The notes under the pieces are model-generated. The model ran no database searches. It saw only the letters and a list, made by a program, of their open reading frames with translations, and was not told the DNA's origin. DNA of 38,552 nt. It comes from a virus. The stretch lies in IMG/VR virus record IMGVR_UViG_3300028831_000592, positions 1 to 38,552 of that record; one strand, written 5' to 3'. Of the stretch, positions 1 to 683 are shown in pieces (within the stretch, counting starts at the first letter, position 1; the number at the start of each line of letters is the position of its first letter). A program made the position numbers and the translations under genes.

Positions 1-141
1 ACCTTTTAATTTTTTGCTTTTTGGTACATCCAATAGGCATCTTCTATGAAAAACCCCATAGTGGTAGTTGCAGCCCCAATTCCTCCGCCTATTACGCACG
101 CAGGGATACTCTTTCCACCTGCCAATCCGCCTATGCATCCG
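1..141. repeat. Terminal direct repeat, identical to 38412..38552. It indicates a circular assembly overlap or terminal redundancy, with a unit length of 38411 bp.
   Basis: Base-by-base reading shows 1..141 equals 38412..38552. Confidence 0.95.
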
Positions 142-299
142 AAAAATGCAGCACTAAGGGCTTGCGATAACATCAACATTGGGCTTTGGTAATTATAATC
201 AGTTTCTACAACGCTAGGCCCAGAGTACTCTTCAATTGTGCAGAGACCATATGTAGCACCACTCACTCTTTTGAATTCGTCAAAAACCAAGTTTCTCAT
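6..299 (-). CDS. Class II microcin / bacteriocin-like precursor B, with a double-glycine-type leader and a Gly-rich hydrophobic core.
   Basis: The N-terminus MRNLVFDEFKRVSGA fits the MRxLxxxELxxVSG(G/A) leader pattern. The mature part contains FFGCIGGLAGGKSIPACVIGGGIGAATTTMGFF. A 4-nt ATGA overlap joins it to the upstream ORF. Confidence 0.6.
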   Translation of the reverse strand: MRNLVFDEFKRVSGATYGLCTIEEYSGPSVVETDYNYQSPMLMLSQALSAAFFGCIGGLAGGKSIPACVIGGGIGAATTTMGFFIEDAYWMYQKAKN

Positions 300-544
300 T
301 GGAAAAGCTCCGGATGGTCATTTCTTATGATGCTATACATGATCAGAAATGGACCCATTTCCTCCCAAGAAGCCCCGGCGTCTATACGCGCCTGGAACTC
401 GGGAGGAAGCGAGCCATCCGCAGGGAGTGTAATCGACATTGAATCGTGAAAATGGACTATCGGCCCTTCTGTATGCGTATAATCTGCTGTAACACAAGCC
501 GCTCCCGAAATTCTATCTAACAAATCTGTCTTTAATAACCGCAT
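296..544 (-). CDS. Leader-bearing peptide A, with a double-glycine-type leader paralogous to ORF 6..299 and an acidic 67-aa C-terminal part.
   Basis: MRLLKTDLLDRISGA aligns with the leader of the next ORF. A GGGAGG RBS lies directly upstream of the ATG at 544, so I prefer the second Met of the 296..556 track ORF. Confidence 0.5.
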   Translation of the reverse strand: MRLLKTDLLDRISGAACVTADYTHTEGPIVHFHDSMSITLPADGSLPPEFQARIDAGASWEEMGPFLIMYSIIRNDHPELFQ

Positions 545-683
545 AGCACCTCCCATATGAATGTTTTAACGATATCACAATGGGAGGGATACGCAAATTT
601 ATTTTTTGTAGTCGAGTTTCTTACATTAGAACAGGATGAGATTGACTACTACAACTATTACTACTACTTCCCAGAAGCTCATT

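What the first reader, a model, noticed from the sequence alone, without database searches (positions are those of the whole stretch)
6..556. Phage-borne pair of peptides with class II microcin-type double-glycine leaders
Two overlapping minus-strand ORFs (ATGA overlap) begin MRLLKTDLLDRISGA and MRNLVFDEFKRVSGA. From memory, this is the signature of Gram-negative class II microcin and colicin V leaders. The colicin V leader is MRTLTLNELDSVSGG, and other microcins end in VSGA or ISGA.

After the predicted cleavage site the second peptide has a ColV-like Gly-rich hydrophobic core, AAFFGCIGGLAGGKSIPACVIGGGIGAATTT. The first peptide is acidic and not bacteriocin-like, so it could be a second component, a decoy or something new.

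No C39-peptidase ABC exporter is encoded in the genome, so maturation would depend on a host exporter. A virulent or temperate phage carrying a microcin cassette at the end of its recombination operon is unusual. It may act in inter-strain competition, superinfection exclusion or lysis.
- Inference: export by a host PCAT and any biological role.
Basis: partly seen in the sequence, partly recalled or inferred. Interest (0 to 1): 0.75.

Follow-up and report, generated by a model that had tools for sequence, protein, structure and literature searches.

The report
Phage peptides with microcin-type export leaders
An uncultivated P22-like phage carries conserved small genes whose first 15 residues look like the export-and-cleavage signal of Gram-negative class II microcins, next to a small membrane protein but with no exporter, so the phage probably relies on a host secretion pump to release peptides whose role is still unknown.

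Summary
Two overlapping minus-strand genes follow YqaJ–RecT: PepA (296-544) and PepB (6-299). Both are under purifying selection.

**The leader**
- Both start with a 15-residue leader that fits the published class II microcin signal pattern.
- The leader is kept in 44 PepA and 15 PepB relatives: Gly at −2 in 100%, Ala/Gly/Ser at −1, Val/Ile at −4, Leu/Ile at −12. The cargoes are unrelated to each other.
- A scoring matrix built only from the phage leaders scores the microcin V signal about as high as the phage leaders score themselves.

**New findings**
- A third leader-bearing gene, PepC (5617-5796, + strand), lies in the other early operon.
- The conserved 2-TM immunity-like gene (38124-38405) lies across the circular junction of the window.

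**What is not shown**
- No curated model, solved structure or cellular genome matches any of the cargoes.
- No C39/ABC exporter was found in this phage or in about 327 kb of related phage DNA.
- The host is unknown and no integrase was found.

**Verdict**
- The microcin-type leader is well supported.
- Membership in the class II microcin family, and antibacterial function, are unproven.
- I rate it a new variant of a known kind, of moderately high interest.

The parts
500..544 (-). PepA leader, 15 codons: MRLLKTDLLDRISGA. Predicted cleavage is after Gly14-Ala15.
   Evidence: In the 40 of 44 family members with a 15-residue leader: Gly at −2 in 100%, Ser at −3 in 95%, Val/Ile at −4 in 100%, Leu/Ile/Val at −12 in 100%, and A/G/S at −1. 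AlphaFold2 predicts a helix at residues 6-11.
296..499 (-). PepA cargo, 67 aa, pI 4.4, 7.5 kDa, plus the TGA stop. It carries the conserved motif DGSLPPEFQARIDAGASW and a C-terminal helical domain.
   Evidence: Alignments A4 and A6. AlphaFold2 pLDDT 78 overall and 87-90 over residues 41-80. No Pfam, NCBIfam, PHROG, PADLOC, PDB or Foldseek match.
549..553 (-). GGAGG Shine-Dalgarno sequence, 4 nt upstream of the PepA ATG at 544.
   Evidence: Sequence read. Shine-Dalgarno survey.
255..299 (-). PepB leader, 15 codons: MRNLVFDEFKRVSGA. Its ATG overlaps the PepA TGA stop (ATGA at 296-299).
   Evidence: All 15 family members have Gly-Ala at positions 14-15, Leu/Ile at −12, and 14 of 15 have Val/Ile at −4. 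AlphaFold2 predicts a helix at residues 6-12.
6..254 (-). PepB cargo, 82 aa, pI 4.4, 8.6 kDa, plus the TAA stop. A variable linker is followed by a Gly-rich hydrophobic helical hairpin, with Cys55 and Cys68 flanking the turn and a conserved C-terminal DAYWMYQ.
   Evidence: Alignments A1 and A3. AlphaFold2 predicts helices 40-60 and 65-96, pLDDT 61. Hydropathy. Both Cys residues are replaced together by Ala in the L021 homologue.
38124..38405 (-). 93-aa basic protein (pI 9.5) with two predicted TM segments, GTG start, 11 nt after the PepB stop across the circular junction. This is the candidate immunity protein. Its possible RBS (AAGG) lies at window positions 2-5.
   Evidence: Homologues with the motif LTANIIW..D follow PepB in most related phages where the DNA downstream of PepB is held; in L021 the counterpart lies upstream of PepA, and none follows PepB in the short contig L011. 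No family hit.
5617..5796 (+). PepC, a third leader-bearing gene outside the finding: MRELEFFEAHEVSGA followed by a 44-aa very acidic cargo (pI 4.05). It sits in the rightward replication operon and overlaps the start of the VRR-NUC gene.
   Evidence: Syntenic homologues occur in L014, L022, L025, L026, L027 and L031. GGGGAG Shine-Dalgarno sequence.
684..2454 (-). Context: YqaJ exonuclease (1522-2454) and RecT (684-1532), immediately upstream in the same leftward early operon.
   Evidence: Pfam E-values 3e-28 and 2e-40.
2976..3004 (-). Context: the best sigma-70-like promoter of the leftward operon (TTGACA-17-TACTAT). It is paired with a divergent promoter at 3040-3068(+).
   Evidence: This is a consensus match only.
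38412..38552 (.). Assembly duplicate of positions 1-141. The genome is circular or terminally redundant, with a true length of 38,411 bp. The 3' part of PepB is repeated here.
   Evidence: (100% identity).

Best explanation
PepA and PepB, and a third gene PepC, are phage-encoded precursor peptides. Each combines a class II-microcin-type double-glycine signal with a different cargo.

**Proposed mechanism**
1. After infection the early operons express the precursors.
2. The amphipathic 15-residue leader docks into the C39 peptidase domain of a host peptidase-containing ABC transporter (PCAT).
3. The leader is cut after Gly14-Ala15.
4. The 5-8.6 kDa acidic cargoes leave the cell through the host PCAT–MFP–TolC type I system.
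5. Mature PepB is the membrane-active effector. It is a glycine-zipper helical hairpin, probably stapled by a Cys55–Cys68 disulfide.
6. The basic 2-TM protein encoded right after PepB protects the producing cell.
7. PepA and PepC are further secreted cargoes of unknown target.

**Shown:** gene reality, leader conservation and its likeness to microcin signals, modular cargoes, conserved synteny with the 2-TM protein, and absence of an exporter in the phage.

**Inferred:** cleavage, export by a host pump, toxicity and immunity.
For: **Leader**
- It fits the published Motif 1 (PMC12219008). It has the −4/−7/−12/−15 hydrophobic positions and G-[AGS] (PMC7018657).
- The genome has three hits to the leader pattern, against 0.05-0.14 expected.
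- The phage-leader matrix scores the MccV signal MRTLTLNELDSVSGG at 20.6 bits. The phage median is 22.8 and the background maximum is 4.7. Positions 2-13 alone give p of about 1e-5.
- Profile-profile similarity between PepA and PepB is confined to residues 1-23, E = 1.8e-5. This means one signal on different cargoes.
- AlphaFold2 predicts a short leader helix in both peptides.

**Cargo and neighbours**
- Mature sizes are 5-10 kDa and the charge is anionic, as for most microcins (PMC10233263).
- The adjacent small 2-TM protein fits the description of microcin immunity proteins. These are adjacent, often overlapping, 51-216 aa, and located in the inner membrane (PMC10233263). It keeps its place in most relatives where the downstream DNA is held.
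- Cys55 and Cys68 are invariant in alignment A3. Both are lost together in L021. This fits a disulfide, hence an extracytoplasmic location.
- Both genes are under purifying selection.

**Plausibility of a host exporter**
- Class II exporters are promiscuous and leader-driven (PMC10233263, PMC12219008, PMC7018657).
Against: - No PCAT, MFP or C39 peptidase was found in the phage or in 327 kb of related phage DNA (Pfam columns).
- The host is unknown, so a host exporter is assumed and has not been observed.
- No cargo matches any bacteriocin or microcin model. The best result is one of 13 PepB relatives against the E492 microcin model at E = 0.03.
- The families are seen only in phage-sized contigs. 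They are absent from one-genome-per-species GTDB contigs and from GenBank phages. That points to a phage-specific role rather than a bacterial weapon.
- The genes sit in early lytic-type operons, and no integrase or CI-type repressor was found. The usual 'armed lysogen' rationale therefore lacks support.
- PepC sits inside the replication operon, which is odd for a toxin.
Confidence: 0.5

Rival explanations
1. The peptides are secreted and PCAT-processed, but they are not bacteriocins. The cargoes would serve the phage itself. Options include signals reporting infection density (a Gram-negative counterpart of phage peptide communication), modulators of lysis or autolysis, or exclusion factors acting on neighbouring cells. 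The 2-TM protein would then be a receptor or modulator rather than an immunity protein.
For: - The leader evidence is the same as for the main explanation.
- There are three different cargoes spread over both early operons.
- Distribution is phage-only.
- No integrase was found.
- Microcin-like GG peptides that do not kill competitors but drive autolysis are documented for the Neisseria nap island. One of these has a close homologue in Inoviridae phages (PMC11798529).
Against: - Cargoes of 44-82 aa are large for signals.
- No receptor or regulator is recognisable nearby.
- PepB's glycine-zipper hairpin plus an adjacent small membrane protein is the classic toxin/immunity layout.
Confidence: 0.25
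2. The peptides are not exported. The shared N-terminus would be an uncleaved structural or targeting element. The proteins would act inside the infected cell, as do the accessory genes found downstream of recombination genes in lambdoid and P22-like phages (kil-, sie- or holin-like). PepB would insert into the inner membrane from the cytoplasm, with the 2-TM protein as its partner or antagonist.
For: - Position in the early-left operon after YqaJ-RecT.
- No exporter anywhere in the lineage.
- PepB has two hydrophobic helices.
- One relative gives a faint hit to an A118-type holin model, E = 0.15.
Against: - This reading needs three unrelated cargoes to keep a 15-residue N-terminus that mimics a PCAT signal position by position, including an invariant Gly at −2 and a small residue at −1.
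- PepA and PepC are soluble and highly acidic.
- The paired Cys residues suggest an oxidising compartment.
- No PADLOC or PHROG exclusion or holin family hit.
Confidence: 0.2
3. The finding is a chance motif or mis-called ORFs.
For: The genes are short and have no database annotation.
Against: - pN is much lower than pS.
- There are 44 and 15 homologues with conserved synteny.
- Shine-Dalgarno sites are present.
- 0 of 200 shuffles reach the observed motif count.
Confidence: 0.02

Closest known systems
Class IIa microcins of Enterobacteria (MccV/colicin V, MccL, MccN; CvaC–Cvi–CvaA–CvaB–TolC system)
   Same: - A 15-residue N-terminal double-glycine signal: M-R-x-L…V-S-G-G/A.
- A mature peptide of 5-10 kDa that is anionic and hydrophobic.
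- A Gly-rich membrane-active region, with a disulfide possible.
- A small inner-membrane protein encoded next to the precursor.
   Different: - No PCAT or MFP genes in cis or anywhere in the element.
- No sequence homology of the cargoes to any known microcin family.
- Carried by a phage, in early operons.
- Two or three precursors per genome.
- Activity is untested.
SPβ prophage sublancin cluster (sunA–sunT–sunI, B. subtilis)
   Same: - A phage-borne secreted bacteriocin precursor whose leader is removed by the exporter during export.
- A dedicated immunity membrane protein (PMC8270828).
   Different: - SPβ brings its own PCAT (SunT) and modification enzymes.
- It is a large temperate Gram-positive phage.
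- It expresses the cluster from the prophage.
- Here there is no exporter, no modification genes and no detectable lysogeny module.
Neisseria nap island peptides (NapA-C)
   Same: - Small GG-motif, microcin-like peptides in a horizontally acquired element.
- One has a close homologue in filamentous phages.
- The function is not competitor killing but autolysis (PMC11798529).
   Different: - Naps are cationic.
- The island encodes its own C39 peptidase and export channel.
- The sequences are unrelated.
Class IIb two-peptide bacteriocins of Gram-positive bacteria
   Same: Two adjacent, translationally coupled precursor genes with GG leaders, followed by one small membrane immunity gene.
   Different: - In class IIb both peptides are short (about 25-60 aa), usually cationic, and both carry GxxxG helix motifs.
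- PepA is a 67-aa acidic soluble domain without such motifs.
- The host is probably Gram-negative.

Membership tests
Class II microcin system | Small precursor (150 aa or less) with an N-terminal 15-18 aa double-glycine signal ending G-[GAS] (published Motif 1 <M..Rx[IL]x9G[GAS]) | tested here: met
   PepA and PepB match Motif 1 exactly (PMC12219008). Across relatives, 15 of 15 PepB and 26 of 44 PepA match Motif 1 or 2, and all 44 PepA keep [VI]-[SA]-G-[AGS].
Class II microcin system | Hydrophobic residues at −4, −7, −12 and −15 that bind the C39 domain | tested here: met
   −15 is Met, −12 is L/I/V in 100%, −4 is V/I in 100% of PepA and 93% of PepB, and −7 is Leu in most (Thr in some). The rule is taken from PMC7018657.
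Class II microcin system | Mature peptide of about 5-10 kDa, neutral or anionic, hydrophobic | tested here: met
   8.6, 7.5 and 5.0 kDa, with pI 4.0-4.4. Only PepB is hydrophobic.
Class II microcin system | Cognate small inner-membrane immunity protein encoded adjacent to the precursor | tested here: inconclusive
   A conserved 63-97 aa 2-TM protein follows PepB in most relatives where the downstream DNA is held. Immunity cannot be recognised from sequence alone (PMC10233263).
Class II microcin system | C39-peptidase ABC transporter (PCAT) encoded with the precursor | tested here: not met
   No ABC_tran or Peptidase_C39 hit in the Pfam-scanned window ORFs (all of 450 aa or more and most of 100 aa or more). 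No Walker-A plus ABC-signature ORF in 327 kb of related loci.
Class II microcin system | Membrane fusion protein (CvaA-like) encoded with the precursor | tested here: not met
   Same scans. No HlyD-type hit.
Class II microcin system | Leader cleavage, secretion and antibacterial activity | not testable with these tools
   These need expression and secretion assays.
Class II microcin system | Sequence homology of the core to a described microcin family | tested here: not met
   Pfam and NCBIfam give no hit for the window proteins. One of 13 relatives hits NF051486 (E492 microcin) at E = 0.031, which is not significant.
PCAT substrates (GG peptides) in general | A host that possesses a PCAT able to process the leader | not testable with these tools
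   The host is unidentified. All related contigs are 39 kb or less, and there is no prophage copy in GTDB representative genomes. Shine-Dalgarno use (33 of 56 genes), sigma-70-like promoters, a P22-type portal and an Sf6-type TerS point to a Gram-negative, non-Bacteroidota host.
Phage-borne bacteriocin clusters (SPβ type) | Self-contained cluster (precursor, exporter, immunity) carried by a temperate phage and expressed in the lysogen | tested here: not met
   There is no exporter. No integrase or repressor was detected in the window. The genes lie in early operons.
Two-peptide (class IIb) bacteriocins | Two short GxxxG-containing peptides, both required for activity, plus one immunity gene | tested here: not met
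   The gene layout fits, but PepA has no GxxxG or hydrophobic helix and is 67 aa and acidic. TIGR03949 gives E = 2.7 in one relative only.

The most novel reading that the evidence does not exclude
A whole lineage of P22-like phages of uncultivated freshwater Gram-negative bacteria carries a set of exporter-less double-glycine peptides (PepA, PepB, PepC) spread over both early operons. On this reading the phage hijacks its host's PCAT type I secretion pump during infection to release its own peptides. These could form a toxin/immunity pair acting on neighbouring cells, or the first peptide-based phage communication or exclusion system in Gram-negative hosts.
Probability: 0.3. Interest if true: 0.85.

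Novelty: new variant of a known kind. Interest (0 to 1): 0.62.

Why it matters
Class II microcins were recently shown to be far more widespread than thought. The two large surveys I read (PMC9746304, PMC12219008) never mention phages. Known phage-borne bacteriocins are rare and bring their own exporter.

A phage lineage that carries only the precursors and a putative immunity gene would show two things:
- Microcin-type signals are a portable "address label" that mobile elements can use to tap a host secretion system.
- There are three new cargo families whose targets could reveal new phage–host or phage–neighbour interactions.

It would also caution genome miners. Requiring a PCAT nearby misses such orphan precursors.

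Tried and rejected
**Searches on the cargoes that found nothing**
- Curated libraries (Pfam, NCBIfam, PHROGs, PADLOC) for PepA, PepB, PepC and the 2-TM protein: nothing significant.
- PDB sequence profiles and Foldseek against PDB and BFVD: only noise, or a family member.
- tblastn of both peptides against 50,697 GenBank phages: no match.

**Searches for a host or a cellular copy**
- GTDB genome scan: one spurious Gly-rich hit in a haloarchaeal MAG, which I discarded.
- Metagenome and IMG/VR scans: only more phage contigs.
- Host identification through TerL, RecT, portal and YqaJ relatives: only 23-40% identity, to phages of Klebsiella, Pseudomonas, Salmonella, Xylella and Vibrio, and to APSE and Megaira phages.
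- The Megaira phage has no leader-bearing peptides.

**Ideas tested and dropped**
- The small lipoprotein found next to PepA in relatives might be a colicin-lysis-type release protein. No Lysis_col hit.
- The module might have its own promoter. Only a 9/12 match at 681-709, no better than chance.
- The 'ColV-like core' as homology. I rejected this as compositional resemblance.

Full report
**1. What is there**

The window is a circularly assembled phage genome.
- Positions 1-141 are repeated exactly at 38412-38552, so the true length is 38,411 bp. GC content is 41.9%.
- It encodes a P22-type portal, an Sf6-type small terminase, a large terminase, a DnaD-like loader and a VRR-NUC nuclease.
- Two divergent sigma-70-like promoters lie near 3000.

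The leftward operon runs as follows:
- small genes, then YqaJ (1522-2454), then RecT (684-1532);
- PepA (296-544, 82 aa);
- PepB (6-299, 97 aa; its ATG overlaps the PepA TGA stop);
- after 11 nt and across the junction, a GTG-initiated 93-aa protein (38124-38405) with two hydrophobic segments and pI 9.5;
- an HTH-like 82-aa protein.

The 141-aa ORF at 38124-38549 is an artefact of the terminal duplication. PepA is best started at ATG 544, behind a GGAGG at 549-553, as in all its homologues.

**2. Are the genes real and is the motif more than chance?**

- Between the window and related phages, both genes show pN 0.18-0.33 against pS 0.6-0.9.
- PepB has 6 close homologues. An exhaustive profile search added 7 more, down to 33% identity.
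- PepA has 44 relatives.
- A leader pattern, M..[LIVM]x7[VILA][SAGK]G[AGS] followed by 30 aa or more, hits three ORFs in the six-frame translation of the genome. Dinucleotide shuffles give 0.05 on average.
- The published-type pattern also gives 3 hits, against 0.14 expected. None of 200 shuffles reaches 3.

**3. The leader**

PepA and PepB both fit the regular expression used to mine class II microcins, <M..Rx[IL]x9G[GAS].

PCAT substrates end in GG, GA or GS. They use hydrophobic residues at −4, −7, −12 and −15 to bind the C39 domain (PMC7018657).

| Position | PepA (40 leaders of 15 residues) | PepB (15 relatives) |
|---|---|---|
| −15 | Met | Met |
| −12 | L/I/V 100% | L/I 15 of 15 |
| −7 | Leu 60%, Thr 28% | L/F/I 10 of 15 |
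| −4 | V/I 100% | V/I 14 of 15 |
| −3 | Ser 95% | S/A 15 of 15 |
| −2 | Gly 100% | Gly 15 of 15 |
| −1 | A/G/S | Ala 15 of 15 |

- The other four PepA sequences have a 14-residue version or a mis-called start.
- The rest of the leader varies freely, and the segment just after the cut site is the most variable, with indels.
- Profile-profile comparison finds PepA and PepB similar only over residues 1-23, E = 1.8e-5. This is one signal on unrelated cargoes.
- A log-odds matrix built only from 56 distinct phage leaders gives the MccV signal 20.6 bits. The phage median is 22.8, and the best of 651 other N-termini from the same loci is 4.7. Without the last two positions it still gives 15.9 bits, p of about 1e-5. 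Four further microcin leaders that I recalled from memory also score 14.6-23.4 bits.
- AlphaFold2 puts a short helix at residues 6-12 in both peptides.

**4. A third member**

The same scan found ORF 5617-5796 on the + strand (59 aa). Its sequence is MRELEFFEAHEVSGA followed by a 44-aa cargo of pI 4.05.
- It has its own Shine-Dalgarno sequence and overlaps the start of the VRR-NUC gene in the rightward replication operon.
- Syntenic homologues with ISGG, VSGG or VVGA leaders occur in L014, L022, L025, L026, L027 and L031.
- The lineage therefore carries three cargo families behind one type of signal.

**5. The cargoes**

*PepB*
- A poorly conserved linker is followed by a predicted helical hairpin, 40-60 and 65-96, pLDDT 61.
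- The hairpin is rich in small-xxx-small motifs and ends in a conserved DAYWMYQ.
- Cys55 and Cys68 are invariant in 13 relatives. The one divergent homologue that lacks them (L021) has replaced both with Ala. This is what a disulfide would predict, and it argues for an oxidising destination.

*PepA*
- It is soluble and acidic, with a highly conserved DGSLPP(E/Q)LQARIDAGES motif and a confident C-terminal helical domain, pLDDT 87-90.

*Database matches*
- No cargo matches Pfam, NCBIfam, PHROGs, PADLOC, PDB sequences or Foldseek libraries.
- The single E = 0.03 hit of one PepB relative to the E492-microcin model is not significant.
- The resemblance to the ColV core is compositional.
- All three mature peptides are acidic. 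Most microcins are neutral or anionic (PMC10233263), so acidity does not set PepA apart.

**6. Context in relatives**

About 30 related contigs were read.
- All are phage-like and 39 kb or less.
- The typical order, where those genes are held, is RecT, then often a 46-54 aa lipoprotein, then PepA, then sometimes a 105-123 aa soluble protein, then PepB, then a 63-97 aa 2-TM protein with the motif LTANIIW..D.
- The window lacks the lipoprotein.
- No ABC transporter or C39 peptidase appears in the Pfam columns of these contigs or in a motif scan of 327 kb.
- The window's three ORFs of 650 aa or more are the portal and two structural proteins without ABC hits.
- There is no relative in one-genome-per-species GTDB contigs, apart from a spurious Gly-rich haloarchaeal hit, and none in GenBank phages.
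- One member is named only 'hypothetical protein UFOVP270_9 [uncultured Caudovirales phage]'.

**7. Host and lifestyle**

- The nearest isolated phages share only 23-40% identity. They infect Gram-negative bacteria: Klebsiella, Pseudomonas, Salmonella, Xylella, Vibrio, and the hosts of APSE and the Megaira phage.
- Strong Shine-Dalgarno use (33 of 56 genes, against a 7% background) and sigma-70-type promoters argue against Bacteroidota.
- No integrase or CI-type repressor was detected. The host is not identified.

**8. Interpretation**

The leader evidence is strong enough to commit to PCAT-type recognition and cleavage after Gly14-Ala15, with export by a host pump. My confidence in that step is about 0.7.

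Class II exporters are known to be promiscuous and leader-driven (PMC10233263, PMC12219008, PMC7018657).

PepB as a membrane-active toxin, with the neighbouring 2-TM protein as its immunity, follows the canonical layout. Immunity genes are adjacent, often overlapping, 51-216 aa, and located in the inner membrane (PMC10233263). This part is inference, at about 0.4.

Several facts argue against a simple 'weapon for the lysogen' reading:
- the distribution is phage-only;
- the genes sit in early operons;
- no lysogeny genes were found;
- PepC sits in the replication operon.

Secreted but non-bactericidal roles therefore remain live, as in the Neisseria Nap peptides. One of those has an Inoviridae homologue (PMC11798529). 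An intracellular role with an uncleaved N-terminus also remains live.

**9. Comparison and novelty**

*Class II microcin system.* It is defined by precursor, immunity protein, PCAT, MFP and TolC (PMC9746304, PMC10233263).
- Met: the precursor features.
- Plausible: the immunity feature.
- Tested and not met: PCAT and MFP.
- Untestable here: activity.
- Conclusion: the module works like a microcin precursor/immunity module, but it cannot be filed as a member of the family.

*Phage-borne bacteriocins.*
- SPβ sublancin has its own PCAT, SunT, and immunity protein, SunI (PMC8270828).
- A survey found phage BGCs rare and almost all bacteriocins (bioRxiv 10.1101/2020.10.01.322628).

What is new here is an exporter-less, multi-cargo, microcin-signal set conserved across a lineage of P22-like phages. 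I rate it a new variant of a known kind, with interest 0.62.

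Noticed in passing
window 5617-5796 (+): A third ORF with a microcin-type 15-residue leader (MRELEFFEAHEVSGA) and a 44-aa very acidic cargo. 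It lies in the replication operon and overlaps the VRR-NUC start. It is conserved and syntenic in at least six related phages.
   Followed up: yes
window 17921-18132 (+), between ORFs 17478-17954 and 18177-18986: Rfam group I catalytic intron (RF00028, 77.5 bits, E = 3.6e-18). It appears to split the major head protein gene: the first ORF matches only the N-terminal third of the PHROG major-head profile. An HNH-type endonuclease gene follows at 19042-19611.
   Followed up: partly
window 1-141 and 38412-38552: An exact 141-bp terminal duplication shows a circular or terminally redundant assembly. It splits the peptide cassette from its downstream membrane-protein gene and creates a spurious 141-aa ORF (38124-38549).
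   Followed up: yes
L005 4709-4855, L010 44-184, L017 3583-3726, L021 9198-9338, L022 7507-7671, L026 9729-9893, L027 9637-9789; window about 626-682 (−): Relatives carry a 46-54 aa lipoprotein (lipobox such as LLVGC or LFGCS, mature part about 28 aa) between RecT and PepA. This is the size of colicin release lipoproteins, but there is no Lysis_col hit. The window has only an 18-aa hydrophobic micro-ORF (MSFWEVVVIVVVVNLILF) at that place.
   Followed up: partly
window 11851-11957 and 12219-12325: A 107-nt direct repeat (93% identity) brackets ORF 11912-12241, just upstream of and running into the large terminase gene. It might be a pac/cos-related or regulatory repeat.
   Followed up: no
window 36660-36807 (−): Two long terminator-like hairpins (14 and 12 pairs) in the roughly 600-bp non-coding stretch between the tail-fibre-like gene and the end of the leftward operon.
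   Followed up: no
window 35035-36234 (+): A 399-aa tail-fibre-like protein with two internal copies of an approximately 85-aa repeat (…IQGGN(I/L)QAGLSGTAGY(L/V)ASFPSAATSGSLR…HGQATTY(V/S)IPDVGNA…). A 399-aa ORF occupies the same position in several relatives.
   Followed up: no
L019 2742-3240: A YoeB/YefM toxin-antitoxin pair lies just downstream of the peptide cassette in one related contig.
   Followed up: no
L014 9679-10020, L027 10252-10569, L026 10252-10623, L021 9655-10008: Some relatives have an extra 105-123 aa soluble protein inserted between PepA and PepB, or before PepA. At least two unrelated types occur, and none has a family hit.
   Followed up: partly
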